A stretch of 62,280 nt of DNA from an uncultured Alphaproteobacteria bacterium (GCA_944390905.1 CALXRR010000001.1:1-62280), one strand, 5' to 3'; counted from the first letter of the stretch, positions 1 through 62,053 are shown. Numbers and translations: made by a program. The notes: generated from the sequence alone by a model not told the origin.

Positions 1-530
1 GTAAAGTCAGCGGCAAAACTCTGCTCGGCGTGGTTATCTACTCTAACGGCGCCTCCGGCGGCGGCTGGGTAATGACGGTTAAGCCGGTTAAGACCGATAT
101 TGCATGGGGTGGATATGGAACAAATATTTCAAGTTTGCCAGACTATACAAGTTGGAGTACCGCAGCCAAAGACTTTGATAGCTGTGGTAATACCGATAAA
201 ATAAGGGCCCAAGGTAATAGTTCAAAATATCCGGCGGCATGGGCAGCTTATAATTACCAGCCGTCAGGCACACCAACGGGCAAACGTTGGTGTCTGCCTG
301 CGGCTGGCGTAATTAATAGTTTGTACAATAATTTGTCCACTATTAATACTGCTATTAGTAAAGCAGGAGGTACTAAATTAGTAAATGATAATGAACACAT
401 TTGGTCGTCGTCTGAGTACTCTAATAACCACGCGTGGTACTTCTGTACTAATTACACGGGCGGCTTGCGCGACTACGGTAAGTACGGCTACGACCACACC
501 ACCGTTGTTCGCCCGGTGCTCGCTTTCTAG
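1..530 (+). CDS. Secreted DUF1566 (Lcl C-terminal, C-type-lectin-like) family protein, paralog 1; 5' end lies outside the window
   Basis: The frame is open from nt 3 (KVSGKTLLGVVIY...), upstream of the GTG used by the ORF track. It aligns with the C-terminal half of the 16247-17200 product (LLGVVIY, KYPAAW, W-C-LP, WSSSEYS, VRPV-AF-stop). DUF1566 is assigned from remembered family motifs (W.LP...L, WSS, VR.V). Confidence 0.8.
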   Translation, partial: KVSGKTLLGVVIYSNGASGGGWVMTVKPVKTDIAWGGYGTNISSLPDYTSWSTAAKDFDSCGNTDKIRAQGNSSKYPAAWAAYNYQPSGTPTGKRWCLPAAGVINSLYNNLSTINTAISKAGGTKLVNDNEHIWSSSEYSNNHAWYFCTNYTGGLRDYGKYGYDHTTVVRPVLAF

Positions 531-878
531 GCAAATTTTCTCCCCCTGTTGCATAGGGCTGGAGAATAGCCAACAATCCAGTGAATTGTTGGCTGATGAC
601 AGCGAAGACTTGTTGACTTGTAAGAAAGCGATAGCTAACCGAAACAAGTCTTACAAGTCGAGTGACCGAAGCGAAGTTGTTAAACCCACGGCGCAACTTA
701 TGAAGCTAGAAGTTAGAGGGAGTGAGATAATTCACAGTAGATTCTTTTATATCTCACCCACCCCATCCCTCCCTATACAACAGGGAGGGAGCTAAAGGAG
801 CCTCTGTCTAACAAGAGCAAAGATGTAAGCATCGCGAATAATTAAAAAAAGAAAGTAGTAACAACTAAATTAGGGGGG

Positions 879-895
879 CAAGCTGCCCCAGCTTG
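879..895. repeat. H-type hairpin (7-bp stem, 3-nt loop), variant caagctg-ccc-cagcttg, abutting the SD of the 908 gene
   Basis: Perfect inverted repeat read directly. It has the same architecture as the hairpins at 16097, 18063, 18361 and 61973. An overlapping alternative hairpin is ggggca-agc-tgcccc (875-889). Confidence 0.6.
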
Positions 896-907
896 AGGAG
901 AAATGAG

Positions 908-1699
908 ATGAATAAGAAATATTTATTATCCAGTGTAACGGCAGGCATCGCCCTCCTTTATGCTAATCAAGGAATGGCGCAATGTGTGAGCACACAAGAC
1001 TGCGCAACTTTGGGTTATACCGAAACCTCTTGTCCAAATGGAAATGGTGTCAAGTGTCCCTTCGGCAACAAGTGGTTCTGTGGGCGAAGCGATGAACAAT
1101 GTATGGAGTTAGCTTGTGATGAGCTGGGCTTTAAATATGATTGTGTCGGAACTAATATAGCAGGCGGGGAAGGAACTGAGTGCAATGGCAAATATGTGGC
1201 TTGTAAATGCGCTTCAGGGTACGGATGGCAAGATAGCTCTTGTCAAGAAATAGTGATGAATGGTCCTGATGGTGAAGTTTATCGATGCAATGGTTCTGTA
1301 TTGGGAGTAAAAACTGCCGATATGGACTTTTATGTTGCAATGTATGATTCTGGAAAAGTAGAGTATGATGATATTGGAAATACTACATATAGCTTCTGTG
1401 CAGATACACCCGGAGTTATTCCAACAAAAGAACAACTGCTGACAATTTATAAAAATCATGAAAGAATAAATGAATTACTATCACAATATGGTGGAGATAC
1501 ATTTGATGATGAATATTACTGGTCAAATACTTGGGCATATGAAAATTGTGTAGATTCTGTATATGATGAGGAGTGGGGATATTCATGTGTAGTGGCCGTG
1601 CAGGGTTATTATGTGGTTAATTTATTGAATGGCAATACTTCTGAATATGACGAGTATTATGCTTATTTTAAGGTACGCAGGATATTAACTAAGTTTTAG
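908..1699 (+). CDS. Secreted Cys-rich + divergent DUF1566-like protein, paralog 2
   Basis: ATG 908 is preceded by GAGGAG (895-900); the ORF-track TTG at 893 is less likely. A signal peptide is followed by AQCVSTQDCATLGYTETSCPNGNGVKCPFGNKWFC, shared with the 16247-17200 product. The C-terminal half has IPTKEQL and YYWSNT motifs. Confidence 0.8.
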   Translation: MNKKYLLSSVTAGIALLYANQGMAQCVSTQDCATLGYTETSCPNGNGVKCPFGNKWFCGRSDEQCMELACDELGFKYDCVGTNIAGGEGTECNGKYVACKCASGYGWQDSSCQEIVMNGPDGEVYRCNGSVLGVKTADMDFYVAMYDSGKVEYDDIGNTTYSFCADTPGVIPTKEQLLTIYKNHERINELLSQYGGDTFDDEYYWSNTWAYENCVDSVYDEEWGYSCVVAVQGYYVVNLLNGNTSEYDEYYAYFKVRRILTKF

Positions 1700-3563: not shown

Positions 3564-4359
3564 AATCAGCCATAACCGGAACATGGTCGGAGGGGCGATC
3601 CCAGGCACGTGCCTCAGTCACGATTTGGTAAGCTTGGAGGTTGTCTTTGAGTGCCGGTGTGACCCAGATGTGGTCTAAGCGGCGGCCTTTGTTGTTGGTC
3701 TGCCAATTGGGGTTGCGGTAGCTCCACCAGCTATAAAGTTTTTCCGGCTCGGGGTGAAACTCTCTGGCGATATCAATAAAATCAAGTGATTTACGCAGGC
3801 GCGACAGGCGCTCAACCTCTATGGGCGTATGGGACACTATTTTGAGCAGTTGTTTGTGGTTCCAGACGTCATTTTCACACGGGGCAACGTTGAAATCTCC
3901 GCAGATGATTTTCTTTTGTCCGGCATAGTCGCTACGATGGTTTTCCCAGTATTCGGCAATGTCATCCATAAAGGTTAGTTTATGCGCAAAGGAAAGGTTG
4001 GCTATCGGGTCGGGGATATCACCGCCGGCAGGGATATAAATGTTATCAAGCTCAATATTATTCGGCAAAAAGACGCTGATATGGCGGGCGTCTTCCTTGC
4101 CGACCCAATTATGCTTGCATTTGCCGCAGAAGGCTTGCTTGCTCAAAATCGCAACACCGTTATAGCCGGCTTGGGAGTAAAGCGCAATATGCGGGTAACC
4201 CAGCGACTTTACCTCGTCAAAAGGAAAATCCTCCGGCTTGGCTTTGACCTCTTGCAAGCAAATAATATCCGGATGATATTGCTCAACAAATTTGCGGAGA
4301 AGCTCAAGGCGAATGCGGATGGAATTGACATTCCAAGTGGCAAGGCGGATATTAGCCAT
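3553..4359 (-). CDS. xthA: Exodeoxyribonuclease III
   Basis: N-terminus ATWNVNSIRIR, CLQEVK, and C-terminal SDHVPV, typical of the ExoIII/APE family. Confidence 0.9.
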   Translation of the reverse strand: MANIRLATWNVNSIRIRLELLRKFVEQYHPDIICLQEVKAKPEDFPFDEVKSLGYPHIALYSQAGYNGVAILSKQAFCGKCKHNWVGKEDARHISVFLPNNIELDNIYIPAGGDIPDPIANLSFAHKLTFMDDIAEYWENHRSDYAGQKKIICGDFNVAPCENDVWNHKQLLKIVSHTPIEVERLSRLRKSLDFIDIAREFHPEPEKLYSWWSYRNPNWQTNNKGRRLDHIWVTPALKDNLQAYQIVTEARAWDRPSDHVPVMADFRF

Positions 4360-4362
4360 AAG

Positions 4363-4977
4363 TTACCCCCTCTTACGGTTGAAAGATTTTTTGTTGTCTT
4401 TTTCCTTGAACTTGAACAGCGACGAATCCAGCGGAATATCTTGCTCATAATTATAAAGCGAGACGCTGATTTCGGTGCCTTGTTGGTCAACCAACTTCCA
4501 CTGTTTGAGCTCAAACGGAGAATTGTTAAAAATTAAGGTTATCGGGCTGGTTTCGCCTTTGATATTATATTCTAAAACCGCCTCGGTAGTACCGGCGTCT
4601 TTATAAAAATCAACCAGTTTGATGTTGTGGCCATCGATTTTAATATCATTGGCCAAGATGAGGCTGGCCGGTACGTCATCATAATCAATATGGGTTACTT
4701 GGTCGAGCTCTTTATCATTATAAACAATAAAATTGCCATCGCCGACGATGGTAACATCAACCGGAGCGGCGTATTCCATGCGAATCTTATTGGGCTTGGC
4801 AATGTATAATTCCCCCTCTGATGTGTTGGCATTGCTGGCTATCTGCACAAAAGAGGCCTTAAGCGTCTTGATGTTGTTGAGGTAATTTTCAATCTTGGCG
4901 ATGTCTTCGGCTTTTTGGGCAAACGCTTGTGGCACAAACATTAGTAATGCGGCAATAAATGTAAATATTTTATACAT
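4363..4977 (-). CDS. lolA: Outer-membrane lipoprotein carrier protein LolA
   Basis: Signal peptide MYKIFTFIAALLMFVPQAFA, LKASFVQ motif, size about 200 aa. I chose the ATG at 4977 (AGAGG 9-13 nt upstream) rather than ORF-track 5019. Confidence 0.8.
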   Translation of the reverse strand: MYKIFTFIAALLMFVPQAFAQKAEDIAKIENYLNNIKTLKASFVQIASNANTSEGELYIAKPNKIRMEYAAPVDVTIVGDGNFIVYNDKELDQVTHIDYDDVPASLILANDIKIDGHNIKLVDFYKDAGTTEAVLEYNIKGETSPITLIFNNSPFELKQWKLVDQQGTEISVSLYNYEQDIPLDSSLFKFKEKDNKKSFNRKRG

Positions 4978-5054
4978 GGAAACACCTCTTGTTGGTTTTG
5001 ATGTATTCAATATAATCATTTTTTTGATGATGTAAAAGCAAAAATGTAAATCAC

Positions 5055-5092
5055 CAAAAAAAGAAGCTCCGAAAGGGAGATATCGGAGCTTC
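5055..5092 (-). terminator. Rho-independent terminator downstream of the methyltransferase transcription unit
   Basis: An 11-bp perfect stem, agaagctccga / tcggagcttct (5062-5072 / 5082-5092), followed on the minus strand by a T-run (A-run 5055-5062 on plus). Confidence 0.75.
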
Positions 5093-5326
5093 TGTTTACT
5101 TAATAATACGTGAAGATAAATTGTAGAAATAAAGTTTTTTTAGTCCTCAGAAAACGCTAGGAGTCTCGTTTTCGGCTTGTTAAAATACACCCGAATCCCA
5201 TGCGGATCCTCGTGTGTAGATTTATAATGCTGTGGTGTACTTACAACTTGCAGGATTAATTTAATCGTGGATTTGGACTTTACAAGAGGGGGTAGACTTT
5301 TTGATAGGTCAAGATAACTCAAATAT

Positions 5327-5340
5327 TTTAAATACAGTGT
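5327..5340 (+). repeat. 14-mer TTTAAATACAGTGT, copy 1 (supplies the last codons and stop of the methyltransferase)
   Basis: Exact match to the five other copies. On the minus strand it reads aaa cac tgt att taa = K H C I stop. Confidence 0.9.
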
Positions 5341-6284
5341 TTCATTTCTGCATTGCGGGATTTAAATACACCGTTCTCGTAGCCTTGGATGCTTTTGTCG
5401 GCTTCGGCAAGCTCTAACCGGCGCTCGGCTAAGGCAACGTATTCTTTCTCGCGCTCAATACCGATATAATGGCGGCCGAGTTTTTTGGCCACAACCGATG
5501 TGGTGCCAGAACCTAAAAACGGGTCAAAGACAACATCGCCCTCATTGCTGGAGGCTAAGATTAATTTGGCGACAAGTTTTTCAGGCTTTTGCGTGGGGTG
5601 GGAGGTGTTCTCCGGCATGGACCAGAAAGGAATGGAGATATCTGTCCAGATGTTAGACGGGTAAGTCAGGCGAACCTTGCTATCACCTTGGTCTTGCCAA
5701 TCTTTGGGAGCGCCGGTGTCATCTCGATAAGGCGCTACAACCGGCCGCAAAACCTTAACCGCATCAAGGTTGAAGGTATAATCTGCCGATTTGGTAAAAA
5801 ACCATATGTCTTCAAGGCAGTTCTTCCAGTTGTTTTGGGCGCCCCTGCCCTTTTCTCGCTCCCAAGAAATGCGGTTTTGCAGAATGAAATATTTGCCGGC
5901 GATCTCCGGAATTGAGATTGAGGTCTTCCAGTCGGAGCAGATATAAATGCTGCCGGTGGGTTTTAAGATACGGGGCAGCTTTTTGAGCCATTTATCAAGC
6001 CAGTCTTTATATTCAGCAAAATCTCGCTCCTTAAAAACACTTTTGCCAAAGACTTTGGTTAAATTATACGGTGGGTCTATCACCATTAAGTCAACACATT
6101 CATCCGGCAGGTAATCCAGCGTCTTAAGAGTATCTTGGTGAATGGTTTTATCAAGCACATAATCCAATGATGATTTAAAATTCAGCTTGATGGCGCGCTT
6201 GGCATAGGCCGAGGTTTCCCTTGGCGAAAGTTCAATGGTTTTATTGCGCGGCGCTTTGGTCATCTGTGGACTATTCTTCACCAA
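5328..6284 (-). CDS. Site-specific DNA methyltransferase, beta-class N6-adenine/N4-cytosine (N6_N4_Mtase type), no adjacent restriction gene
   Basis: DPPYN motif IV precedes FDPFLGSGTT motif I (circularly permuted beta order). Alternative start at 6263 (MTKAPRNK) would remove the 14-nt overlap with the upstream HPr gene. Confidence 0.85.
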   Translation of the reverse strand: MVKNSPQMTKAPRNKTIELSPRETSAYAKRAIKLNFKSSLDYVLDKTIHQDTLKTLDYLPDECVDLMVIDPPYNLTKVFGKSVFKERDFAEYKDWLDKWLKKLPRILKPTGSIYICSDWKTSISIPEIAGKYFILQNRISWEREKGRGAQNNWKNCLEDIWFFTKSADYTFNLDAVKVLRPVVAPYRDDTGAPKDWQDQGDSKVRLTYPSNIWTDISIPFWSMPENTSHPTQKPEKLVAKLILASSNEGDVVFDPFLGSGTTSVVAKKLGRHYIGIEREKEYVALAERRLELAEADKSIQGYENGVFKSRNAEMKHCI

Positions 6285-6552
6285 ATTTACTGTTGACTAG
6301 CAGGGTTAAGGCATCAATGGCGGCTTGCGCCTCAGGGCCGGAAGCATTGACCTTGATGGTTGTACCTTTGGCGGCGGCAAGCATCATCAGCCCCATAATG
6401 GACTGACCGCTGACTTTTTGACCGATACGCTCAACCGTAACATCGGCCTTAATATCTTCAATAGCTTTAACAAAGGCTGCCGCGGCACGGGCGTGGAGCC
6501 CTTTTTTGTTTTGAATCTCAAGTTCAACACTAATAATATTGTCTGAGGGCAT
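6271..6552 (-). CDS. ptsH: HPr-family phosphocarrier protein (HPr/NPr)
   Basis: 93 aa. GLHARAAA active-site His region. SIMGLMML motif. Confidence 0.85.
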   Translation of the reverse strand: MPSDNIISVELEIQNKKGLHARAAAAFVKAIEDIKADVTVERIGQKVSGQSIMGLMMLAAAKGTTIKVNASGPEAQAAIDALTLLVNSKFGEE

Positions 6553-6554
6553 CT

Positions 6555-6953
6555 TTAGGCTCCCAAAAGTTTGGAGGCTACATTAATATATTTTTTGCCG
6601 GCTTCCTGTGCGCCTTCGACAGCTTCTTTTAAGCTTTTGTCTTTGCGCAGAGAGGCCAGTTTAATCAGCATCGGAAGATTTATGCCGGCGATAATCTCGA
6701 CCTTGGCTTTATCCATAATGGAGATAGCCAAATTAGATGGGGTGCCGCCAAACATATCAGTCAAGACAATAGCGCCGCTACCGTTGTCTACTTCACTGAC
6801 TTTGTTTAATATCTCGCTACGGCGCATTTCCATATCATCTTCAGGACCGATGCAGACCGCTTTGACTTGGTCTTGCGGGCCGACAACGTGCTGCATAGCT
6901 GAGATGAACTCTTCGGCCAAGCGGCCATGAGTTACTAAAACCAAACCTATCAT
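6555..6953 (-). CDS. PTS EIIA component, mannose/fructose family (regulatory PTS of alphaproteobacteria)
   Basis: MIGLVLVTHG N-terminus with active-site His, LTDMFGGTP motif, 132 aa. Sits directly upstream of the HPr gene. Confidence 0.85.
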   Translation of the reverse strand: MIGLVLVTHGRLAEEFISAMQHVVGPQDQVKAVCIGPEDDMEMRRSEILNKVSEVDNGSGAIVLTDMFGGTPSNLAISIMDKAKVEIIAGINLPMLIKLASLRKDKSLKEAVEGAQEAGKKYINVASKLLGA

Positions 6954-14848: not shown

Positions 14849-15994
14849 ATGGCTACTGAAACCGACTATTATGAACTGCTGGAAGTGTCTAAAACCGCCA
14901 GCGGGGAAGAAATTAAAAAAGCTTATAGAAAATTGGCGATGAAATATCATCCGGACAGAAACCCCGGTGATAAAGAGGCTGAAAATAAATTCAAAGCTAT
15001 TAATCAGGCTTATGACGTGTTGAAAGACCCTCAAAAACGCGCCGCTTATGATAGGTATGGGCATCAGGCTTTTGCTAACGGCGGTATGGGCGGCGGAAAT
15101 CCATTCAATGGTTTTGACTTTAATTTCGGCGGCGGGTTCTCGGATATTTTCAGTGATATTTTCTCTGATTTTATGGGCGGCGGACAACGCAGCTCAGCTC
15201 AAAACTATGCGCAGGACGGCGCGGATTTGCGATATAATCTGGAGATTACGCTGGAAGAGGCATTCAGCGGCGTAGAAAAAGAAATTAAAATCCCGACTAC
15301 CGTGCCTTGTGAAGACTGCAACGGGCATGGCACCGCTGACGGAAAAGAGGCTCCGATTTGTCCGCATTGCAAAGGCAGAGGCAAAATCAGAACTCAACAC
15401 GGATTTATGATTATGGAGACAACCTGCCCCAATTGTCATGGTGAAGGGCGCGTGGTTAAAAATGCCTGCAAAAAGTGCCATGGCGAAGGGGTTATCCATA
15501 GCGAAAAAGTGCTTAAGGTTAAAATTCCGGCCGGCGTGGAAGATAATACCCGTATGAGGATTGCCGGTGAAGGACAAAGCGGTATCAGAGGCGGCGAAAA
15601 CGGCGATTTGTATGTGTTTATATCCGTCAAAGAGCATGAGTTGTTTATGCGCGACGGAGCTAACTTGTATGTAAAAGTGCCGATTTCGATGACTTGTGCA
15701 GCTTTGGGCGGAAAAATCGAAATTCCGGATATTAACGGTGAAAAGATTGAGGTTGAAGTGCCGGCCGGTACCCAGACCGACCAGCAAAAACGCTTGAGCG
15801 GACAAGGTATGACGGTTTTGCGCTCGGCCAAGCGCGGTGATTTGTTTGTGAAATTCAGAGTAGAAACCCCGACCAACCTGACCCAACGCCAGAAAGAGCT
15901 GCTGGAAGAGTTTCGTAATATCAGCAAAGATGAAAACTGCCAGCCCGAGGCTAAAAGTTTTTTTGATAAAATTAAAGACCTGTTTGCGGCTTAA
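14849..15994 (+). CDS. dnaJ: Molecular chaperone DnaJ
   Basis: J-domain with HPD, a G/F-rich region, and four CxxCxG zinc-finger repeats. Confidence 0.97.
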
Positions 15995-16000
15995 AGACAA

Positions 16001-16039
16001 TAAACCCCGAGAATACTTGAAAAGTTCTTCGGGGTTTAT
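16001..16039 (+). terminator. Terminator-like hairpin after dnaJ
   Basis: taaaccccga ... tcggggttta arms (10 bp) around a long loop, followed by a T-rich stretch. Confidence 0.5.
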
Positions 16040-16060
16040 TGTATGTATAACACTATCCTT

Positions 16061-16096
16061 GCCCCTGTTGAGAATCTAGAAAGCAAACACAGGACG
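16061..16096 (-). pseudogene. Relic of a DUF1566-family gene: last 6 codons plus stop (RPVFAF*) and 15-nt 3' flank only
   Basis: The minus strand reads cgt cct gtg ttt gct ttc tag followed by attctcaacaggggc. The 18-mer gcccctgttgagaatcta (16061-16078) is identical to 62048-62065, which is the stop plus flank of the 62063-62280 paralog. Confidence 0.7.
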
Positions 16097-16168
16097 GAAG
16101 CGGGTGCCGCTTCACCCACTAGGTTAGTTGTTACTTGTTCTGCGTTTTAATTAGTCGCGATGCTTGCA
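16096..16168. repeat. A-type composite repeat (H hairpin gaagcgg-gtg-ccgcttc plus about 55-nt tail), copy in 'forward' orientation
   Basis: 26/26 identity with 61972-61997. About 70% identity by eye to the reverse complement of 18011-18082 and 18310-18380. Confidence 0.75.
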
Positions 16169-16193
16169 TGGTGTCGGTGTTGAGTTCTTGACA

Positions 16194-16228
16194 CTGGATC
16201 CCCGGGACAAGCCCGAGGATGACAGTGC
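16194..16228. repeat. B-type hairpin repeat (..ggatccccgggacaagcccgaggatgacagtgc..)
   Basis: Imperfect 9-bp stem atccccggg / cccgaggat. Related copies are at 17697-17730 (inverted) and 18182-18223. It resembles the '...DPR.KPEDD...' pseudo-ORF palindromes I remember as common in alphaproteobacterial intergenic DNA. Confidence 0.6.
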
Positions 16229-16246
16229 CGGTAGAGGGATAAAAAC

Positions 16247-17200
16247 CTAGAAAGCCATGACCGGACGGACGGAGGTGCTGTAGTAGCTGGAGGCCTTATC
16301 GTTAGTGCCAATATCAAACAAATCCCCCGTAGTGGCGCCGAACTCCCACACGCGGTCACTGGAGTACTCAGATGAAGACCAAACGTTCTCATAATAATAA
16401 CTTCCATTGTTGTATACCTTTCCTAGGATTGTTCCTCCAGCAATGCAAATACCGGCATTGACTTTGGCAAAATTGGTGGAATTATTGATGTTATTTAATA
16501 AGCCACTTGAAGGTAGGCACCAGCTTTTACCGCTTGGGGTGCCTGTTGGTTTATAATTCTTAGCTACCCATGCCGCCGGATATTTTGAACTACTGCCATA
16601 TGCGGTAATAATATCAGTATTGGTACAGCTGGCTTGTATATCTGTCGGAGTTGAAGTATAGTTAGTAAGCCTCGGAATATCTTTAGATTCCGTAGACCAC
16701 ATGGTGCCTACGCCTACCTGAACCGGCTTAACCGCTATAATCCAGCCGTTTTGTCCAGCGGATTTTTCATAAATAACCACACCCAGCAGGGTTTTAGAGC
16801 TTAATCTATCTTGTGAGCAAGTGCCGTCACTGTAATACAAAGCACCGATGACGCAGTTCGCGGTGCCATCTTCACATTGTTGAGACGAATCGTTCCAGGC
16901 GTAACCGGATGCGCAGGTGCAGGAGGTATATTTACCATTACAAGCCTTACTGCCGCCACCGGTTTGGTTGGAGCCGGTGCAGGTGAGCGTAAAACCAAGG
17001 TCATTACAGATTTCTGACTCGGATTTGAAGCATGCCCATTTGTTGCCAAACGGGCATTTGACGCCAGAGCCGCCGGAGCAAGAGGTTTCGGTATAGCCTA
17101 AAGTTGCGCAGTCTTGAGTGGCGACGCACTGGGCAAAAGTTAAATTTGGGATTAAGGACAGAGATGTCCCGATAAGTAGAAAAAGTTTAGTATTAGTCAT
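16247..17200 (-). CDS. Secreted Cys-rich + DUF1566 family protein, paralog 3 (complete, 317 aa)
   Basis: Signal peptide, then AQCVATQDCATLGYTETSCSGGSGVKCPFGNKWAC. A further Cys-rich spacer, then the DUF1566-type domain (KYPAAW, SWCLPSSG, VWSSSEYS, VRPVMAF-stop). Confidence 0.85.
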   Translation of the reverse strand: MTNTKLFLLIGTSLSLIPNLTFAQCVATQDCATLGYTETSCSGGSGVKCPFGNKWACFKSESEICNDLGFTLTCTGSNQTGGGSKACNGKYTSCTCASGYAWNDSSQQCEDGTANCVIGALYYSDGTCSQDRLSSKTLLGVVIYEKSAGQNGWIIAVKPVQVGVGTMWSTESKDIPRLTNYTSTPTDIQASCTNTDIITAYGSSSKYPAAWVAKNYKPTGTPSGKSWCLPSSGLLNNINNSTNFAKVNAGICIAGGTILGKVYNNGSYYYENVWSSSEYSSDRVWEFGATTGDLFDIGTNDKASSYYSTSVRPVMAF

Positions 17201-17204
17201 TTCA

Positions 17205-17272
17205 CAACACCCTTTGTCTTAGTAGTTAAAAACAACGTCCACTCTTTGATGACAAAGGGCGGACGGGTGTTG
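17205..17272 (-). promoter_or_regulatory. 5'-leader hairpin that pairs the SD region of the 16247-17200 gene with an upstream anti-SD
   Basis: In the mRNA sense, ccctttgtc pairs with gacaaaggg, which contains the AAGGG SD 9 nt before the AUG, and caaca pairs with tgttg. An alternative register uses gggtgttg / caacaccc. Read directly from the sequence. Confidence 0.45.
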
Positions 17273-17696
17273 CAAACCGTAGAGATATTTACGGCCCGGC
17301 ATTTTCAAGCCAAGGCTCTTATAGTACCGGCACCCGCCCCAAGAGGCATATAAGCACCGGTAATCATTATTTTAAGTCGTTATACCTAAACGACTATATC
17401 TCCAAAAGGGTTTGCACGCCCTGACGGACAAACTTTGCCCGCTAATCAAAATTCTAGCATAACAGAGCTTAAAAATCAATGAATAAGTCTTGAGAGTTAG
17501 AAATATCTTGAAATGGCGGCGGTATTGGGTGTTATTTGACTAATTTTGTCCAGTGTTTTTTGGGGAGGTAGGGGTAAAGGGATGAGTAAAAAGGAAGTTA
17601 GGGGATGGAATGGAAGAGTATAGAAGGAGGCGGAGCGGGGATGGAAGTTAGTCGGTATTGGGTTTGGTGGAGTGGAGTAGAATAAAAAATATTATC

Positions 17697-17730
17697 AACT
17701 GTCATGTTCGGGCTTGACCCGGACATCTAA
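17697..17730. repeat. B-type hairpin repeat, inverted copy
   Basis: atgttcggg-cttga-cccggacat, a 9-bp stem with one G-T pair. Confidence 0.6.
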
Positions 17731-17740
17731 ACGCTGGTTT

Positions 17741-17823
17741 GAGTTAGAGTTTGTTAGTAGTTTAGGCTCCGGCATAGCCGGAGGCACAAGCTCTACCAGC
17801 TTGTGTTGGATGGTTTTTTATAA
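17741..17823. repeat. Composite repeat, diverged A-tail plus R1 double hairpin
   Basis: 17767-17805 (ctccggcatagccggaggcacaagctctaccagcttgtg) is 39/39 identical to 18079-18117. It contains the hairpins ctccggc-ata-gccggag and cacaagct-ctacc-agcttgtg. Confidence 0.8.
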
Positions 17824-18010
17824 GGTAAGTTGTGAGATAAAGATTGTGTGTTTAATTTAGGTAAGATAATCTATCGCGTCTAATTTTGTCCAAGAGACTA
17901 AGAGATGAAGAGAAGAAAGAGGGTAATAGGAAAGTTAAAGATAATATTTAGAAACAAAATCCCGACCCTCTCAACAGCTAAACTGGGTGGAGTTCAACGG
18001 CCTCGGGAGT

Positions 18011-18134
18011 GAGCAACGCGACTACTTGAAACATGGGATAAGTAACAGCTAAGTTAGGGGATGAAGCTGGCACAGCTTCTCCGGCATAGCCGGAGGCACA
18101 AGCTCTACCAGCTTGTGGTGGATGGTTTTTATAA
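18011..18134. repeat. Composite repeat: A-tail + H hairpin (gaagctg-gca-cagcttc) + R1 double hairpin (most complete copy)
   Basis: 18018-18056 is 39/39 identical to 18316-18354. The H hairpin is at 18063-18079 and R1 at 18079-18117. Confidence 0.85.
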
Positions 18135-18181
18135 TGGTATAATCTTAGGATTAAACATGGATACTTTATCTAAATTAAGCA

Positions 18182-18223
18182 TAGATCCTGGGGCGCGCTG
18201 CGCTTGTCCGAGGATGACAGTGC
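18182..18223. repeat. B-type repeat, partial/diverged copy
   Basis: It shares ..gtccgaggatgacagtgc with 16211-16228; the 5' half is diverged. Confidence 0.5.
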
Positions 18224-18309
18224 AAGATGATAGGCAGGCGGCAATATCTAAGCAACGCGATTTTCTGGGCACGAAACAAACCACAGCTAACCTAGGGCTC
18301 CACGAGCAT

Positions 18310-18380
18310 CGTGGAGCGACTACTTGAAACATGGGATAAGTAACAGCTAAGTTAAGAAGTGAAGCTGGCACAGCTTCTTG
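18310..18380. repeat. Composite repeat: A-tail + H hairpin (second tandem-like copy)
   Basis: Identical 39-mer plus the identical 18-mer gaagctggcacagcttct (18361-18378), preceded by the hairpin ctccacga-gca-tcgtggag (18298-18316). Confidence 0.85.
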
Positions 18381-18446
18381 CGCAGGAGAGGAGGGTAATT
18401 TTGGGAGGTGGGGTTGCGGCAAGAAAAATTGTGTCGTTTAGCCTAA

Positions 18447-19514
18447 TTATGCTTGCTCTTTTTTGGATTTGAGCTGGCCGCAGGCTGCCAGGATATCTTG
18501 TCCGCGGGGGACGCGTATCGGTGCGGCAAAGCGGTTCTTTTGCAGTTCTTTAGAAAAAGCGATAATCCGGCTCTTGGGGCTCGGCTCATAAGCACACCCC
18601 GGCCATGGGTTAAACGCTATCAAGTTGAACTTGGCATTAATCTTAAACTTGCGCATCAAGTCTATCAGCTCGTGGGCATCAGCCAGAGAATCATTAAAAT
18701 CTTTAAGCATAAGGTATTCAAAAGTAACAAAATGACTGCCGTCAAGTTGTTGATACTCATGACAAGCGGTCAAAACTTCCTCTAACGGGTAGCGCTTGTT
18801 AATAGGCATAATCTGTGAGCGTTTCTCATTATTGGGGGCATGCAGGCTGATTGCCAGTTTGACGCCGGTGGCTTGAATCATCGGCACAATATTGGGAGCT
18901 ATCCCTGATGTAGACAAAGTGATGCGACGTTTGGAAATGGCTATACCATCGCCGTCGGTCAAAATCTTGAGGGCTTTGATGACGTTGTCCATATTATGCA
19001 GAGGCTCACCCATGCCCATAACCACGATATTGGAAAGGTAGCGGGTTTCGTCTTTGGGTGATGGCCATTCATGATAAGCATCGCGAGCGGCCATAAACTG
19101 ACCGACAATCTCTCCGGCGGTCAAGTTGCGGGTGATTTTTTGGCTGCCGGTATGACAGAATTTGCACCCAACCGCGCAGCCCACCTGTGTGGAAATACAG
19201 ACGGCGCCGCGGTCTTCTTCCGGAATATAAACCGTCTCGATACGCTGGCCGTCGGGAAACTCAAACAACCACTTGTGGGTTTTGTCAGCAGAAATCTGTT
19301 CGGTTATGATTTTGGGGCGAGTAATTGAACAGTGTTCCTCAAGCTTGGCGCGGAAGTCTTTGGAGAGGCTGCTCATTTGCGCAAAATCAGTTGCGCCGTG
19401 GTAATAGAGCCACTGCCACAATTGTTTGGCGCGGAAAGGTTTTTCACCCAAATCAGCAATAAAAGATGAAAGCTCCTCTTTGCTCAAGCCGATGAGTTCT
19501 ACTTTATCAGTCAT
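18447..19514 (-). CDS. rlmN: 23S rRNA/tRNA (adenine-C2)-methyltransferase RlmN (radical SAM)
   Basis: CAVGCKFCHTG radical-SAM cluster motif, GMGEP, C-terminal ACGQL. Start set to the ATG at 19514 (MTDKVELIG), 4 nt after the upstream stop. Confidence 0.92.
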   Translation of the reverse strand: MTDKVELIGLSKEELSSFIADLGEKPFRAKQLWQWLYYHGATDFAQMSSLSKDFRAKLEEHCSITRPKIITEQISADKTHKWLFEFPDGQRIETVYIPEEDRGAVCISTQVGCAVGCKFCHTGSQKITRNLTAGEIVGQFMAARDAYHEWPSPKDETRYLSNIVVMGMGEPLHNMDNVIKALKILTDGDGIAISKRRITLSTSGIAPNIVPMIQATGVKLAISLHAPNNEKRSQIMPINKRYPLEEVLTACHEYQQLDGSHFVTFEYLMLKDFNDSLADAHELIDLMRKFKINAKFNLIAFNPWPGCAYEPSPKSRIIAFSKELQKNRFAAPIRVPRGQDILAACGQLKSKKEQA

Positions 19515-55604: not shown

Positions 55605-55631
55605 AAAAGGAGCTTTTTTAGCTCCTTTTTT
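55605..55631. terminator. Bidirectional terminator between secB and xerD (overlaps the xerD stop)
   Basis: aaaaggagct-tttt(t)-agctcctttt flanked by A and T runs. Confidence 0.6.
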
Positions 55632-56523
55632 GGTGTAAGGGGTGGTTTTGCAATACGGTTTTGATGAGACTGTCATCAATGATATGGGTATAAATTTCAG
55701 TAGTGGAGATACTGCTGTGCCCAAGCATTTGTTGAACAGCGCGAAGGTCAGCGTGGTTGTTGAGCAAATGAGTGGCAAAAGAGTGGCGCAAAGTATGTGG
55801 TGAAATTTTTGATGGAGAAATACCGCAGCGAGCGGCAAGCTCTTTTAGGTCTTTATAAAAGGCGTCGCGGGTAAAGTGGCCAGAGCGGCTGCGGGAGGGA
55901 AAAAGCCATTGCGATTTGCGGCCGCGTTTGAGAAAGTTGTCTCTAAAATCAAGATAAACCAAAATGCTTTCAATGGCAGAGGAGGCTATAGGAATCAGGC
56001 GTTCTTTGCTGCCTTTGCCGCGGATGAGGATTTGTTTGCGCTCAAAATTAATGCAGTTTTCCGGCAGGGTAACAAGCTCAGAAACACGGAGACCGCAGGC
56101 ATACATAAGTTCTATCATAACGGACATTCTTTGCCAGCGAATCTCAGAGCTGTTGCGAGAGGTGTCTATGAGTTGTTTTATCTCTTCAGCCGAAAGGTAT
56201 TTAGGTAAAGGTTTTTGTTGCTTGGGTGATAAGATATTGCCGGTCGGGAGGGTGGAAATATCTTTTTCAGAATAAAGGAATTTGAAGTATTCTCTCAAGG
56301 TTGAGATTTTACGGGCAATGCTTTTGGCGGCGAATCCGTCAGCTGAAAGGCTTTTGATGAAAGCGGAGATGTCGGCTTTGGTGATATCTGAAGGTGATGA
56401 TTTGGGGCAGTTGGCCCAAAATTGTTCCAGGTCTCGGCGGTAAGCCTGCAAGGTGTTGTCTGAAGCACCACGCTCGGCCGACATCATTTCTAAAAAGTCT
56501 TCAATTTGCTCGCCGGATGACAT
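55618..56523 (-). CDS. xerD: Tyrosine site-specific recombinase XerD (XerC/D family)
   Basis: R...HxLRHSFATHLL...LGHSSISTTEIYTH catalytic motifs. Divergent from aroK, as is common in alphaproteobacteria. Confidence 0.9.
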   Translation of the reverse strand: MSSGEQIEDFLEMMSAERGASDNTLQAYRRDLEQFWANCPKSSPSDITKADISAFIKSLSADGFAAKSIARKISTLREYFKFLYSEKDISTLPTGNILSPKQQKPLPKYLSAEEIKQLIDTSRNSSEIRWQRMSVMIELMYACGLRVSELVTLPENCINFERKQILIRGKGSKERLIPIASSAIESILVYLDFRDNFLKRGRKSQWLFPSRSRSGHFTRDAFYKDLKELAARCGISPSKISPHTLRHSFATHLLNNHADLRAVQQMLGHSSISTTEIYTHIIDDSLIKTVLQNHPLHQKRS

Positions 56524-60255: not shown

Positions 60256-61332
60256 ATGATTGTTTTAGGAATCGAAAGCAGTTGTGATGAAACCGCCGCC
60301 GCCGTGGTGAATGATAAGCATGAGATTTTGGGCGAAAGCGTATTGTCACAGGAAGAGCATAAAAAATATGGCGGCGTGGTGCCGGAAATTGCCGCACGCG
60401 CACATTTGGAGCATATTGATGAGATTATTGAACTGGCATTGAAAAAAGCCGGCGTATCTTTGCAGGATATTGATGCGGTGGCGGCTTCAAGCGGGCCGGG
60501 GCTGATTGGCGGAGTGGTCGTTGGGGTAATGGCTGCCAAAGCAATAGCCTTGGCTTTGGACAAGCCGTTTGTGGCCGTAAACCATTTGGAAGGGCATGCT
60601 TTGACCGCGCGATTGACTGCCGGTGTTGAATATCCGTTTTTGTTGTTGTTAGTCTCCGGTGGGCATTGTCAGATTTTGATTGTCAAAAATGTCGGCGATT
60701 ATCAGCGACTGGGGACAACCATTGATGACGCTGCAGGTGAGGCTTTTGATAAAGTGGCAAAAATGCTCGGGCTGGGATACCCCGGAGGGCCGATGATTGA
60801 AAAATTGGCGGCGCAGGGTGATGAAAATCGCTTTAGTTTGCCGCGGCCGCTGCAAAATTCAGGCGACTGTAATTTGTCTTTTTCAGGATTAAAAACCGCA
60901 GTGCGCAAAATAATCGAATCATATGCGCCGGACGGAATGGTGGAGCATGCTATTTTGCCAAAGCAAGATGTGGCTGATGTTTGCGCTTGTTTTCAGAAAG
61001 CGGCGACCGAATGTTTGTTGATGAAGCTGGAAAAAGCAATCAAGATTTTTAAGGAAAAATACCCCGAGGCTGAAGATTTGGTGGTTGCCGGAGGTGTGGC
61101 CGCGAATACTTATTTGCGGGAATCGATGGAGCGTTTGGCTAAGCGGTATAATATGACTTTTGCGGCGCCTCCGGTTCGCTTTTGTACCGACAATGGTGTG
61201 ATGATTGCTTGGGCCGGACTGGAGCGCTTTAAAAATGGATATACCAATAGTTTGGACTTTAAGCCTCGTCCGCGTTGGCCTTTAGATGAAAATGCACCCA
61301 AAGCGGTTGGTGCCGGAGGAGTTAAAGCATAA
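60256..61332 (+). CDS. tsaD: tRNA N6-adenosine threonylcarbamoyltransferase TsaD
   Basis: VLGIESSCDETAAAV, HLEGH, GGVAAN motifs. ATG 60256 is preferred over ORF-track 60199. Confidence 0.95.
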   Translation: MIVLGIESSCDETAAAVVNDKHEILGESVLSQEEHKKYGGVVPEIAARAHLEHIDEIIELALKKAGVSLQDIDAVAASSGPGLIGGVVVGVMAAKAIALALDKPFVAVNHLEGHALTARLTAGVEYPFLLLLVSGGHCQILIVKNVGDYQRLGTTIDDAAGEAFDKVAKMLGLGYPGGPMIEKLAAQGDENRFSLPRPLQNSGDCNLSFSGLKTAVRKIIESYAPDGMVEHAILPKQDVADVCACFQKAATECLLMKLEKAIKIFKEKYPEAEDLVVAGGVAANTYLRESMERLAKRYNMTFAAPPVRFCTDNGVMIAWAGLERFKNGYTNSLDFKPRPRWPLDENAPKAVGAGGVKA

Positions 61333-61964
61333 TGCGGAAAAAAGCCGAAATCTTAGAGATTATGCGCTGTTTTGAGCAAAATGACCCGAATCCGCGTTGT
61401 GAGCTGAACTTTAGCAATGCTTATACGCTGCTGGTGGCGGTAGTATTGTCAGCGCAGTCAACAGATAAAGGTGTCAATAAGGCGACGGAAGAGTTGTTCA
61501 AAGTGGCAGATACACCCCAAAAAATGCTGGCTTTGAGTGAGGATAAGCTCAAAGAATATATCAAGACCATTGGCTTATATAACAACAAAGCCAAAAACAT
61601 TATGCTCTTGAGTAAAGAATTGGTGGAAAAATTTGGCGGAGAGGTGCCGGAGAATCGTGAAGATTTGCAGAGTTTGGCCGGCGTGGGGCGTAAGACGGCT
61701 AACGTGGTGCTGAATGTGTGGTTTGGCAAACCGGCGTTGGCGGTGGATACGCATGTGTTGCGCTTGGCACAGCGCTTGGAGTTGAGTGATGGTAAAACAC
61801 CGCTGGAGGTGGAGCAAGATTTGCTCAAGGTATTGCCCGAAGAATATGTTAAGCGGGCGAATCACTGGCTGGTGTTGTTTGGGCGCTATGTGTGCAAGGC
61901 GCAAAAGCCGGAATGTGAAAAGTGTTTTTTGCGGAATTGGTGTAATTGTGCAGACAAACGCTAG
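61332..61964 (+). CDS. nth: Endonuclease III
   Basis: HhH-GPD (LAGVGRKTANVVL), catalytic D, C-terminal 4Fe-4S cluster C..6..C..C..5..C. Confidence 0.93.
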   Translation: MRKKAEILEIMRCFEQNDPNPRCELNFSNAYTLLVAVVLSAQSTDKGVNKATEELFKVADTPQKMLALSEDKLKEYIKTIGLYNNKAKNIMLLSKELVEKFGGEVPENREDLQSLAGVGRKTANVVLNVWFGKPALAVDTHVLRLAQRLELSDGKTPLEVEQDLLKVLPEEYVKRANHWLVLFGRYVCKAQKPECEKCFLRNWCNCADKR

Positions 61965-61971
61965 TCTAGCT

Positions 61972-62010
61972 GGAAGCGGGTGCCGCTTCACCCACTAACC
62001 TAGCTGTTGA
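61972..62010. repeat. A-type repeat, partial copy (H hairpin gaagcgg-gtg-ccgcttc plus start of tail)
   Basis: 26/26 identity with 16096-16121. Confidence 0.8.
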
Positions 62011-62015
62011 TGGAT

Positions 62016-62053
62016 AGGGGCAGAGAAACGAACTGCGTTCGTACCGTGCCCCT
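62016..62053 (-). terminator. Nested hairpin 10 nt downstream of the paralog-4 stop (terminator-like, no clear U-run)
   Basis: The outer stem is aggggca / tgcccct. It encloses the inner hairpin acgaac-tgc-gttcgt. Confidence 0.4.

What the first reader, a model, noticed from the sequence alone, without database searches (positions are those of the whole stretch)
18063..18117. Hairpin family with compensatory base changes (7-bp stem, 3-nt loop)
Three sequence variants keep the same architecture:
- caagctg-ccc-cagcttg at 879-895.
- gaagctg-gca-cagcttc at 18063-18079 and 18361-18377.
- gaagcgg-gtg-ccgcttc at 16097-16113 and 61973-61989.

Position 1 changes from C:G to G:C, and position 6 from T:A to G:C, each with the matching change in the partner arm. 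A related longer hairpin, cacaagct-ctacc-agcttgtg, shares the AAGCT...AGCTT core. Covariation means the structure is what is conserved, whether as a DNA cruciform or hairpin or as an RNA stem. REP-like elements and homing or recombination targets behave this way.
Basis: seen in the sequence. Interest (0 to 1): 0.6.

Follow-up and report, generated by a model that had tools for sequence, protein, structure and literature searches.

The report
Hairpin-capped mosaic repeats beside DGR targets
The small hairpin is the end-cap of a roughly 70-base repeated DNA unit that one group of uncultured gut Alphaproteobacteria carries in up to about 140 copies, mostly flanking a hypervariable secreted-protein gene family; it behaves like the known REP/NIME type of intergenic repeat but fits no described family and has no dedicated enzyme in sight.

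Summary
All five hairpins sit at the stated coordinates, and none is expected by chance.

**What it is.** The hairpin is the 3' cap of a 65-80 nt unit with a conserved 5' module (..GCCCCTATC..CAACAGCTA-NNN-TAGKGGGT). The genome holds 138 exact hairpins. Relatives hold 4-71 in six congeners and none in eight.

**Structure.** Stem positions 1, 2, 4, 6 and 7 covary across species and genera, and 98.9% of cells pair. Sequence is conserved too: three stem pairs and the GGGT head.

**Context.**
- 59 of 70 hairpin-bearing intergenic regions adjoin one paralog family: DUF1566-type targets of a diversity-generating retroelement (DGR).
- The cap points away from the gene on either side.
- Units form head-to-tail mosaics with CGTC-type REPs, relic gene ends and half-hairpins.

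**Enzymes.** The assembly (90% complete) has no RAYT, IS110, TnpB or integron integrase, only XerC/XerD-like recombinases and the DGR reverse transcriptase.

**Verdict.** This is a new REP/NIME-like mosaic repeat family, spread and homogenised with the paralogs' flanks. The role of the hairpin is unproven. The DGR itself was noted earlier in this scan.

The parts
828..895 (+). Repeat unit (AGCATCGCG..AATTAAAA..TAACAACTAAATTAGGGGGG) capped by hairpin CAAGCTG-CCC-CAGCTTG (879-895). It lies 341 nt downstream of target gene 3..530. Its 3' arm overlaps the TTG start that the mechanical ORF list gives at 893 for the next target gene (893..1699); an ATG follows at about 907.
16097..16164 (-). Repeat unit capped by hairpin GAAGCGG-CAC-CCGCTTC (16097-16113), in the 3' flank of DGR-target gene 16247..17200(-). 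The motif begins 126 nt after the stop.
16076..16096 (-). Relic last codons plus stop of another family member (CGTCCTGTGTTTGCTTTCTAG), fused directly to the foot of the hairpin.
   Evidence: The same hairpin-to-relic junction recurs on C15, C19, C20, C46 and C47, and in congener G004.
16194..16228 (-). CGTC/TGTC-tagged REP (TGTC-ATCCTCGGG-CTTGT-CCCGGGGAT-CCA) between the stop codon and the unit.
   Evidence: Matched to the family description in PMC3733652.
18012..18079 (+). Repeat unit (AGCAACGCGAC..TAACAGCTAAGTTAGGGGAT) capped by hairpin GAAGCTG-GCA-CAGCTTC (18063-18079). It sits upstream of target gene 16247..17200(-) and points away from it.
18079..18117 (+). Two further hairpins of the type III unit: CTCCGGC-ATA-GCCGGAG (18079-18095) and CACAAGCT-CTACC-AGCTTGTG (18097-18117). 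An identical pair lies at 17767-17805.
   Evidence: Elsewhere the CACA(A/G)GCT family shows its own compensatory A:T to G:C change.
18300..18377 (+). Sister hairpin CCACGA-GCA-TCGTGG (18300-18314), followed by a second unit capped by GAAGCTG-GCA-CAGCTTC (18361-18377).
61973..62049 (-). Complete unit in the 3' flank of the partial target gene at the window end (stop at 62064-62066). It comprises GGGGCAC, the inner hairpin CGAAC-GCA-GTTCG (62029-62041), TGCCCCTATC, CAACAGCTAGGTTAGTGGGT, and the cap GAAGCGG-CAC-CCGCTTC (61973-61989). It abuts the stop of nth (61332..61964).
   Evidence: Identical in two other metagenome assemblies.

Best explanation
**What it is.** The hairpin is the terminal cap of a lineage-specific, REP-like intergenic repeat unit of about 65-80 nt. 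The unit runs: GGCAC start; a short, often GCA-looped inner palindrome; one of three interchangeable middle blocks; CAACAGCTA-NNN-TAG/GAT-GGGT; then the 7-bp/3-nt hairpin.

**How it is arranged.** Units sit head-to-tail in NIME/BIME-like mosaics together with CGTC-type REPs. They lie mainly in the flanks of the roughly 45-100 paralogous DUF1566-type DGR-target genes, with the cap always pointing away from the gene.

**How it spreads (inferred).** Units spread and are homogenised together with those gene flanks, by duplication and by gene conversion or microhomology recombination. No enzyme of their own is involved. Orphan units in ordinary intergenic sites are remnants of lost or rearranged paralogs.

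**What the hairpin does (inferred).** It forms in single-stranded nucleic acid and is kept by selection and/or by palindrome-templated correction. It lies inside the transcribed 3' region, between stop codon and terminator. Its most likely cellular effect is therefore that of other REPs: a 3'-proximal stem-loop on the mRNA, and a hot spot for DNA rearrangement.

**Shown versus inferred.**
- Shown: anatomy, copy numbers, distribution, covariation, gene association, and lack of a transposase in the assembly.
- Inferred: mode of spread and cellular role.
For: **Family and unit**
- The five window copies share a conserved 5' flank. Seventy-four oriented genome copies show the full unit.
- There are 103 copies of TAGKGGGT plus hairpin and 138 bare hairpins, against 0 for the reversed controls.
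- RNAalifold on 30 diverse units predicts only the terminal hairpin as a shared structure.

**Structure kept**
- 98.9% of cells pair, and 4 of 7 pairs have changes on both sides. Shuffled and slid controls are far lower.
- A census anchored on the 5' module alone finds it followed by quite different perfect palindromes: SAAGCTG, GAAGCGG, CCACGG, CCACGA, GCGGGG and CCACCG, mostly with 3-nt loops.
- Among fuzzy matches, 139 copies are perfect, 23 have one mismatch, and 41 have two, of which about 18 are expected background.

**Distribution**
- The family is clade-restricted, with species-specific loops: GCA, CGC, CCC or CCT.
- Weaker relatives exist in other genera.

**Gene association**
- 59 of 70 hairpin-bearing intergenic regions adjoin a family gene, although only 135 of 883 regions do so (odds ratio 52).
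- Orientation is polar: 42 copies 3'-direct, 22 5'-inverted, 3 5'-direct, 0 3'-inverted.

**Mosaic joints**
- Relic gene ends and half-hairpins sit at the hairpin foot or loop, and junctions recur at CCGG/CCGGCAC.
- In 39 of 97 cases the repeat array ends at a hairpin foot, next to unique DNA.

**Turnover at orthologous sites**
- The recG and ftsI 3' flanks carry units with different hairpins in G000, G013 and G014. Some relatives have a converging family gene there instead.

**No dedicated enzyme**
- No Y1, IS110 or TnpB was found, and the only tyrosine recombinases are XerC- and XerD-like.

**Match to the known class**
- REPs lie mostly downstream of ORFs, and the CGTC super-family lacks a dedicated transposase (PMC3733652).
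Against: - Transcription of the units and any effect on mRNA is therefore untested.
- The assembly is 90% complete and has 74 contigs that break in these repeats, so a single-copy enzyme gene could be missing.
- No clean 'empty site' was recovered. Other strains were near-identical, and the relatives' loci were rearranged. Independent transposition of units is therefore not excluded.
- Strict conservation of the GGGT head and of stem pairs 3, 5 and 7 looks like a protein or enzyme recognition site, which a purely passive repeat would not need.
- The paralogs share descent, so the gene-association statistic overstates independence.
Confidence: 0.58

Rival explanations
1. DGR target-site accessory. 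The hairpin, or the whole unit, is the cis element that lets the single DGR (RT, Avd and TR on contig C61) recognise its many remote targets. It would be the counterpart of the hairpin/cruciform downstream of VR in the Bordetella phage BPP-1 DGR.
For: - A complete DGR is present: a VR-bearing target, avd, three TR copies and RT.
- At least 45 paralogs end in the same IMH-like sequence, CCGGTGCTCGCTTTCTAG.
- In 42 copies the hairpin lies downstream of such a gene in the sense orientation, at stereotyped distances: the motif starts 63-71 or 124-126 nt after the stop.
- Published DGR hairpins have 7-10 bp stems whose structure, not sequence, matters (PMC3240598).
Against: - Published hairpins have 4-nt GRNA loops and lie 4-34 bp after VR. 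Here the loop is 3 nt, differs between species (GCA, CCC, CCT, CGC), and sits about 73 or 132 nt after the stop.
- Five congeners keep the orthologous RT but have no such hairpin. Their targets are followed by ordinary terminators.
- The target next to the DGR on C61 carries a different hairpin 27 nt after its stop.
- About a third of copies lie upstream of genes in inverted orientation, or at non-target sites.
- More proximal hairpins (the inner CGAAC-GCA-GTTCG stem, or the CGTC REP) fit the published position better.
Confidence: 0.1
2. The unit is primarily an RNA element: a 3'-UTR stem-loop with a conserved single-stranded leader. It would serve as an mRNA stabiliser, a processing or protein-binding site, or a U-tract-less terminator for the paralog family, selected at the RNA level.
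For: - Units lie between the stop codon and a canonical terminator in several loci, so they are probably transcribed.
- Most copies have the sense orientation of the upstream gene.
- The conserved 5' module is strand-specific.
- REPs in general are thought to act as RNA (PMC3733652).
Against: - Stems are almost purely Watson-Crick. Only 2 of 455 cells are G:U, which is unusual for an RNA helix.
- 22 copies sit upstream of genes in inverted orientation.
- Breakpoints of DNA rearrangements coincide with the loop and foot.
- No U-tract follows the hairpin.
- Whole-unit folds are not better than shuffles in 3 of 4 cases.
- No Rfam family matches.
Confidence: 0.17
3. The units are the ends of a mobile gene cassette. 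Outward-facing hairpin caps on both sides of a DGR-target gene would mark the termini of a cassette moved by an unidentified (or host Xer / DGR RT) activity. This would explain the expansion of the family to dozens of loci.
For: - Polarity is strict: the cap points away from the gene on both sides, 64 versus 3.
- The same two configurations are seen in G001, G007 and G008.
- In 39 of 97 cases homology stops at the hairpin foot.
- Family genes occupy different intergenic sites in close relatives, for example beside recG or ftsI.
- The hairpin-bearing genomes mostly have the larger families, 70-101 matches against 14-56. G004 is the exception, with 4 hairpins and 17 matches.
Against: - No transposase or integron integrase is present.
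- The 5' and 3' caps belong to different subfamilies: GAAGCTG at the 5' side versus CAAGCTG or GAAGCGG at the 3' side.
- No target-site duplication or empty site was found.
- Only about 14 of roughly 45 genes have a 5' copy.
- Shared descent of the paralogs with their flanks explains the polarity equally well.
Confidence: 0.1
4. The palindrome is a double-stranded binding site (7-3-7 inverted repeat) for a dimeric DNA-binding protein such as a regulator or nucleoid protein. The symmetric changes would then reflect half-site symmetry, not hairpin formation.
For: - The inverted repeat is perfect, with a fixed 3-bp spacer.
- Positions 3, 5 and 7 and the flanking GGGT are invariant in the 65-sequence alignment.
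- Loop bases vary freely.
Against: - At least seven different half-site sequences would need as many specificities.
- The same 5' module is followed by unrelated palindromes.
- Copies lie mostly at gene 3' ends, not at promoters.
- The conserved flank is on one side only.
Confidence: 0.05

Closest known systems
REP sequences, especially the CGTC-tagged super-family of Alphaproteobacteria (Di Nocera et al. 2013, PMC3733652)
   Same: - Short, high-copy extragenic palindromes.
- An unpaired conserved head on one side.
- Mostly just downstream of ORFs and between convergent or unidirectional genes.
- Species-specific variants.
- The CGTC class likewise has no dedicated transposase.
- Genuine CGTC-type REPs (TGTC-ATCCTCGGG-N5-CCCGGGGAT-CCA) are interleaved with the units here.
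   Different: - The head is GGGT/GGAT, not GTAG or CGTC.
- The stem is 7 bp with a 3-nt loop, against 8-9 bp with 4-5 nt loops for CGTC REPs.
- The hairpin is welded to a conserved 50-60 nt 5' module.
- Units are head-to-tail, not head-to-head dimers.
- There is an extreme bias towards one paralog family.
Neisseria intergenic mosaic elements (NIMEs: RS units bounded by dRS3 repeats). Compared from my own knowledge; one search confirms only that dRS3 = CGTC-1 REP.
   Same: - Arrays of 50-150 nt repeat units punctuated by short palindromic repeats.
- Concentrated next to genes for variable surface or secreted proteins.
- Proposed to promote recombination among them.
   Different: - Different sequences.
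- Here the punctuating hairpin is part of each unit.
- The neighbouring genes are varied by a DGR, not by transformation-driven recombination.
- No phage or transposase is known to target the hairpin.
E. coli BIMEs / REP-RAYT 'REPtrons' (PMC8266576, PMC3479197)
   Same: - Mosaic combinations of palindromic units with other short motifs.
- A hairpin plus a conserved 5' motif is the kind of substrate a HUH Y1 enzyme recognises on single-stranded DNA.
- Repeats and lineage co-vary.
   Different: - No RAYT was found in G000, G013, G001 or G007.
- The Y1 genes found in four other congeners include ordinary IS200 copies with their own, unrelated hairpins.
- There is no GTAG motif.
- BIME REPs alternate in orientation, whereas these units do not.
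DGR target hairpin/cruciform (Guo et al. 2011, PMC3240598)
   Same: A GC-containing stem of about 7 bp downstream of a variable region, where stem structure rather than sequence is what is kept.
   Different: - The loop size and sequence rule (4-nt GRNA) is not met.
- The distance rule (4-34 bp) is not met.
- The hairpin is present at many non-target sites.
- It is absent from congeners that keep the DGR.

Membership tests
REP (GTAG/CGTC-tagged palindromic repeats) | Small (20-40 bp) palindromic repeat, high copy number, extragenic | tested here: met
   A 17-nt palindrome (21 nt with its head). There are 138 exact copies in 1.63 Mb. Of 145 relaxed-pattern copies, 120 lie outside crude gene calls; the other 25 fall mostly in short, probably spurious ORFs or at ORF ends.
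REP (GTAG/CGTC-tagged palindromic repeats) | Unpaired GTAG or CGTC tag at one end | tested here: not met
   The head is GGGT (GGAT in some relatives). Neither strand has GTAG or CGTC next to the stem (definition).
REP (GTAG/CGTC-tagged palindromic repeats) | Located mainly downstream of ORFs, between convergent or unidirectional genes | tested here: met
   42 copies are 3'-direct to a family gene. Others abut the stops of recG, ftsI and nth.
REP/RAYT REPtron | Cognate single-copy Y1 (RAYT/TnpA-REP) gene flanked by the REPs | tested here: not met
   No PF01797 match in G000 (90% complete), G013, G001 or G007. Three of the four Y1 hits (G014, G006, G004) were inspected and are IS200-type genes flanked by their own CCGGC-stem hairpins, not by this family; the fourth (G008, partial) was not inspected.
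BIME/NIME-type mosaic element | Clusters in which palindromic units are combined with other conserved short motifs in variable order | tested here: met
   Units, CGTC REPs, CCACG/GCGGGG/CCACCG hairpins, half-hairpins and relic gene ends occur in varying combinations. Examples are tandem 66- and 115-nt units and four tandem units of about 290 nt.
BIME/NIME-type mosaic element | BIME: successive REPs alternate in orientation | tested here: not met
   Units within an array are head-to-tail.
DGR target hairpin/cruciform | 7-10 bp GC-rich stem with a 4-nt GRNA loop on the sense strand | tested here: not met
   The stem is 7 bp with 4-5 G:C pairs, and the loop is 3 nt. The loop is GCA in G000 but CCC, CCT or CGC in relatives (rule).
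DGR target hairpin/cruciform | Lies 4-34 bp downstream of VR/IMH | tested here: not met
   The hairpin starts about 73 or 132 nt after the stop. The preceding motif starts at 63-71 or 124-126 nt.
Integron attC / gene cassette | Integron integrase and attC with R''/R' core sites (GTTRRRY) | tested here: not met
   The only tyrosine recombinases score best as XerC and XerD, and integron-integrase models score far below their cut-offs. No GTTRRRY core is present; the closest sequence is GTTAGGG (sequence).
Intrinsic (Rho-independent) terminator | GC-rich hairpin immediately followed by a T-run | tested here: not met
   The hairpin is followed by C/G-rich or unique sequence. Where present, a separate canonical terminator lies further downstream.
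Any Rfam RNA family | Match at or above the family's gathering score | tested here: not met
   The only gathering-score hit in the window is the SRP RNA. In 15900-18500 nothing overlaps a hairpin, even at E up to 5.

The most novel reading that the evidence does not exclude
The outward-facing hairpin-capped units are the cis-acting ends of a transposase-less mobile cassette that carries a DGR-target gene. The cassette would be moved or copied by a host activity such as replication-fork template switching at the hairpin, Xer, or the DGR reverse transcriptase. The repeat family would then be the vehicle that seeds new hypervariable genes around the chromosome.
Probability: 0.1. Interest if true: 0.75.

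Novelty: new variant of a known kind. Interest (0 to 1): 0.42.

Why it matters
- **New REP-like family.** REP-like repeats are common, but how those without a RAYT spread, and what they do, is still open. This family offers an unusually clean case:
  - a small genome with no transposases in the assembly;
  - a hairpin kept through at least five compensated stem positions across genera;
  - species-specific homogenisation;
  - a near-exclusive link to one gene family.
- **Link to a diversifying gene family.** That gene family is diversified by a DGR with dozens of remote targets.
  - If the units help duplicate, recombine or express those genes, they are part of how an uncultured gut lineage builds a large variable surface or secreted repertoire.
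  - If they do not, the family is still a useful marker for strain typing, and a known cause of assembly breaks in these MAGs.

Tried and rejected
- **RAYT/HUH partner.** PF01797 is absent from G000. Congener hits are IS200 copies with unrelated ends. Rejected.
- **Other mobile-element enzymes.** No IS110. TnpB gives only a sub-threshold 23-bit hit. The tyrosine recombinases are XerC- and XerD-like, not IntI.
- **Rfam.** No family covers the hairpins. The only nearby weak hit (sRNA-Xcc1, below threshold) lies in a gene leader.
- **Plasmid collection.** No similarity for 17950-18400.
- **Whole-unit RNA structure.** RNAalifold finds only the terminal hairpin. Single-sequence folds are mostly no better than shuffles.
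- **Sigma-54 promoter reading of TGGCAC-N-TTGC in the loop region.** Rejected by eye: the GG-to-GC spacing is 8, not 10.
- **GNA-triloop idea for the GCA loop.** Dropped, because relatives use CCC, CCT or CGC loops.
- **Empty-site hunting.**
  - Other strains' contigs are identical or break in the repeat.
  - The tolB and recG loci of relatives are rearranged beyond the terminator.
  - No precise insertion boundary or target-site duplication was obtained.
- **Earlier-findings search by sequence.** It found nothing similar elsewhere in the scan.

Full report
**1.

None is expected in dinucleotide-preserving shuffles. The longer hairpin CACAAGCT-CTACC-AGCTTGTG is at 18097-18117, with a twin at 17785-17805. 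As DNA the hairpins fold at -6 to -7.5 kcal/mol.

**2. The hairpin is the end of a longer unit**

- Aligning the five copies, with 16097 and 61973 reverse-complemented, shows a conserved 5' flank, AACA.CTA...TA..., running into the stem.
- Across the whole genome (1.63 Mb, 74 contigs, 43% G+C), 74 oriented copies share this architecture:
  - a GGCAC start;
  - a short inner palindrome, often CGAAC-GCA-GTTCG or GCGA-GCA-TCGC;
  - one of three middle blocks (CCTCYTTGCCCCTATC.., AATTAAAAC..AACAAG.., TTGGCAC..AGCAAGC);
  - CAACAGCTA-NNN-TAG(G/T)GGGT;
  - then the hairpin.
- Tandem copies show a unit length of about 66 nt. With a relic gene end included the period is 115 nt.
- The motif TAGKGGGT plus hairpin occurs 103 times (reversed control 0). 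The bare hairpin occurs 138 times.
- RNAalifold on 30 diverse units from several species predicts only the terminal 7-bp hairpin as a shared structure.

**3. Covariation is real and broader than reported**

- Within this genome the three variants are amplified subfamilies: CAAGCTG-GCA 41 copies, GAAGCTG-GCA 29, GAAGCGG-CAC 23. By themselves they represent only two compensatory events.
- Relatives add independent events:
  - CAAACGG-CGC-CCGTTTG and CGACCTG-CCT-CAGGTCG in G013 and G014;
  - CAAACTG-GCC-CAGTTTG and CAAACGC-CCT-GCGTTTG in other genera.
- On an ungapped alignment of 65 distinct sequences:
  - 98.9% of stem cells pair;
  - 4 of 7 pairs change on both sides;
  - no shuffle of 500 reaches the observed covariation score;
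  - sliding the partner columns drops pairing to 25-51%.
- That sample was picked with a pattern that allowed but did not force complementarity.
- A census anchored only on the 5' module is free of that bias. It shows the module followed by unrelated perfect palindromes: SAAGCTG 36, GAAGCGG 16, CCACGG-GCA-CCGTGG 13, GCGGGG-GCT-CCCCGC 8, CCACGA-GCA-TCGTGG 7, CCACCG-CCT-CGGTGG 3.
- In a fuzzy census, 139 copies are perfect, 23 have one stem mismatch and 41 have two. About 18 of those 41 are chance background and several more are half-hairpin junctions.
- Two caveats:
  - Stem pairs 3, 5 and 7 never vary in that alignment and the GGGT head is nearly constant (third base A in some copies), so sequence is conserved as well as structure. 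One copy from another genus does change pair 7.
  - From general knowledge, perfect palindromes can also be maintained by templated (quasi-palindrome) correction, not only by selection. Either way the hairpin must form.
- Only 2 of 455 cells are G:U. This leans towards a DNA-level constraint, though weakly.

**4. Distribution**

- Within the genus the hairpin count is: G000 138, G013 71, G014 46, G008 23, G001 13, G007 11, G004 4, and 0 in eight other species.
- Of the congeners in which the DGR reverse transcriptase was found, the hairpin-bearing ones have the copies most similar to G000's (70-81% identity, against 61-67% for the hairpin-free ones). No RT was found in the G014 assembly. I infer that the hairpin-bearing genomes form a subclade.
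- Dominant loops are species-specific: GCA in G000; CGC/CCT in G013; CCC/CGC in G014; CCC/CCT in G001, G007 and G008.
- A covariance model built from the alignment finds strong hits only in this genus. It finds low-copy, divergent relatives in three other genera of the family.
- At orthologous sites:
  - The recG 3' flank carries units in G000, G013 and G014, each with that species' own hairpin type. G001, G008 and G012 carry none.
  - The ftsI 3' flank carries units in G000 and G014 only.
  - G001 and G013 have a converging family gene beside ftsI.
- This points to turnover and within-genome homogenisation. It also suggests that orphan units are what is left when a paralog is lost or moved.

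**5. Context: a DGR-target gene family**

- The genome has one reverse transcriptase. It belongs to a complete DGR on contig C61: a VR-bearing gene, avd, three TR copies ending ..GTTCGCCCGGTGCTCGCTTTTTTG, then RT. An earlier follow-up in this scan had already called the family DGR-diversified (e1-3695953). I confirmed the element independently.
- At least 45 full-length paralogs end in the matching ..CCGGTGCTCGCTTTCTAG.
- A BLASTP search finds 98 family ORFs. Every congener has 14-101 matches.
- Of 883 intergenic regions, 135 adjoin a family gene. Those 135 hold 59 of the 70 regions that contain a hairpin (odds ratio 52). The paralogs are not independent, so this overstates significance.
- Polarity is strict:
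  - 42 hairpins lie 3' of a family gene in the same orientation;
  - 22 lie 5' in inverted orientation;
  - 3 lie 5' direct;
  - none lies 3' inverted.
- The 3' copies are at stereotyped distances. The motif starts 63-71 nt after the stop, or 124-126 nt when a CGTC-type REP is intercalated.
- Subfamilies are position-specific. GAAGCTG makes up 20 of the 22 5'-inverted copies, while CAAGCTG and GAAGCGG dominate at the 3' side.
- The same two configurations appear in G001, G007 and G008.

**6. Marks of rearrangement**

- Several hairpins are followed directly by the last 18-21 nt of another family gene (..GCTTC-CGG-CCGGTGCTCGCTTTCTAG). One is in the window at 16076-16096, and one is in congener G004.
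- 'Half-hairpins' (loop plus 3' arm, GGCACAGCTTG/C) follow other hairpins or repeat in tandem.
- Inverted units are spliced into a gene leader at GTGCCGG.
- The intercalated REP is bracketed by CCGGCAC direct repeats.
- In 39 of 97 cases the DNA just beyond the hairpin foot is unique, while the DNA before it is repeated in 94 of 97.
- The hairpin's loop and foot are therefore preferred joints.

**7. What it is not**

- It is not a terminator, because no T-run follows it. Canonical terminators lie further downstream.
- It matches no Rfam family.
- It is not a RAYT-linked REP. No Y1 gene is found in G000, G013, G001 or G007. The inspected hits in G014, G006 and G004 are IS200-type genes with different hairpins at their ends.
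- It is not an integron attC. The two tyrosine recombinases are XerC- and XerD-like.
- No IS110 or TnpB is present.
- It does not fit the published DGR hairpin. The loop size and sequence rule and the 4-34 bp distance rule both fail. Five congeners keep the DGR without the hairpin.

**8. Comparison with known elements**

- The interleaved B-type palindrome (TGTC/CGTC, ATCCTCGGG, 5-nt loop, CCCGGGGAT, CCA) fits the CGTC-tagged REP super-family of Alphaproteobacteria. That family 'apparently lacks a dedicated transposase' and includes the Neisseria dRS3 repeat.
- The focal hairpin has neither the GTAG nor the CGTC tag, and has a shorter stem and loop. It is therefore a distinct REP-like family.
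- Its arrangement is mosaic arrays next to variable secreted-protein genes. From my own knowledge this most resembles Neisseria NIMEs, followed by E. coli BIMEs and pneumococcal BOX elements.

**9. Verdict**

- The finding is a genuine, lineage-specific REP-like mosaic repeat whose terminal hairpin is under a structural constraint.
- Its spread is best explained by co-duplication and gene conversion with the flanks of the DGR-target paralogs. Its cellular role is unproven: an mRNA 3' stem-loop and/or a recombination joint.
- A dedicated enzyme, a DGR-accessory role and a cassette-end role remain possible but are not favoured.

Noticed in passing
G000 contig C61:4044-7663 (outside the window): A complete DGR. 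The order is: target VR ending at about 7467(-), avd at 6175-6567(-), three tandem TR copies in two sequence variants (about 6090-5950, 5790-5680, 5490-5390), then RT at 4044-5378(-). Together with at least 45 remote targets this is an unusually large DGR regulon.
   Followed up: partly
window 17201-17470 (-): A conserved leader of about 250 nt (type A) lies upstream of many family genes, behind a TTGATT-N17-TATGCT-like promoter. It gives a weak Rfam sRNA-Xcc1 match at 17253-17339(-), 31.9 bits against a gathering score of 53. A second conserved leader (type B, about 190 nt) serves other paralogs. Both are candidate cis-regulatory RNAs.
   Followed up: no
window 16194-16228, 17697-17730, 18182-18223: The B-type palindromes fit the CGTC/TGTC-tagged REP super-family: a 9-bp stem starting AT, a 5-nt loop and a CCA tail. 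The genome has 37 strict copies. In target 3' flanks they are bracketed by CCGGCAC direct repeats.
   Followed up: partly
window 18120-18140 (+): The three-hairpin 'type III' unit is followed by GGTTTTTATAATGGTATAATC, which contains an extended -10-like TGGTATAAT. The same block recurs in four tandem units of about 290 nt on contig C10:14300-15370. It could drive a small transcript.
   Followed up: no
window 17555-17680, 17881-17950, 18381-18420 (+): Purine-rich, nearly C-free G-tract blocks lie upstream of family genes. Their C-rich complement precedes the CTAGACAAAATTAGCC motif of type B promoters in many paralogs.
   Followed up: no
G000 C43:9290-9400, C4:28100-28160; G014 L015: Another dispersed repeat: the terminator AAGGCTCGTC-N4-6-GACGAGCCTTT followed by (A/C)TATGGAATCTAAGAGTTTGAT...
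   Followed up: no
G000 C61:7395-7440 (-): The hairpin after the DGR-adjacent target (CAGCTTCGC-TCCA-GCGAAGCTG, followed by a T-run) contains the same 7-mers as the focal hairpin, CAGCTTC and GAAGCTG, in swapped order. A similar hairpin follows a target in congener G012. This may hint at the family's origin.
   Followed up: no
G014:C38:150-830 and G006:C12 (loci L097, L096): Near-identical IS200 copies sit in two congeners at different loci, which suggests recent transfer. They are unrelated to the hairpin family.
   Followed up: partly
window 55618-56523 (-) and G000 C53:8690-9637 (-): The only tyrosine recombinases in the assembly score as XerD-like and XerC-like. Apart from the DGR, the genome appears almost free of mobile-element enzymes.
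   Followed up: partly
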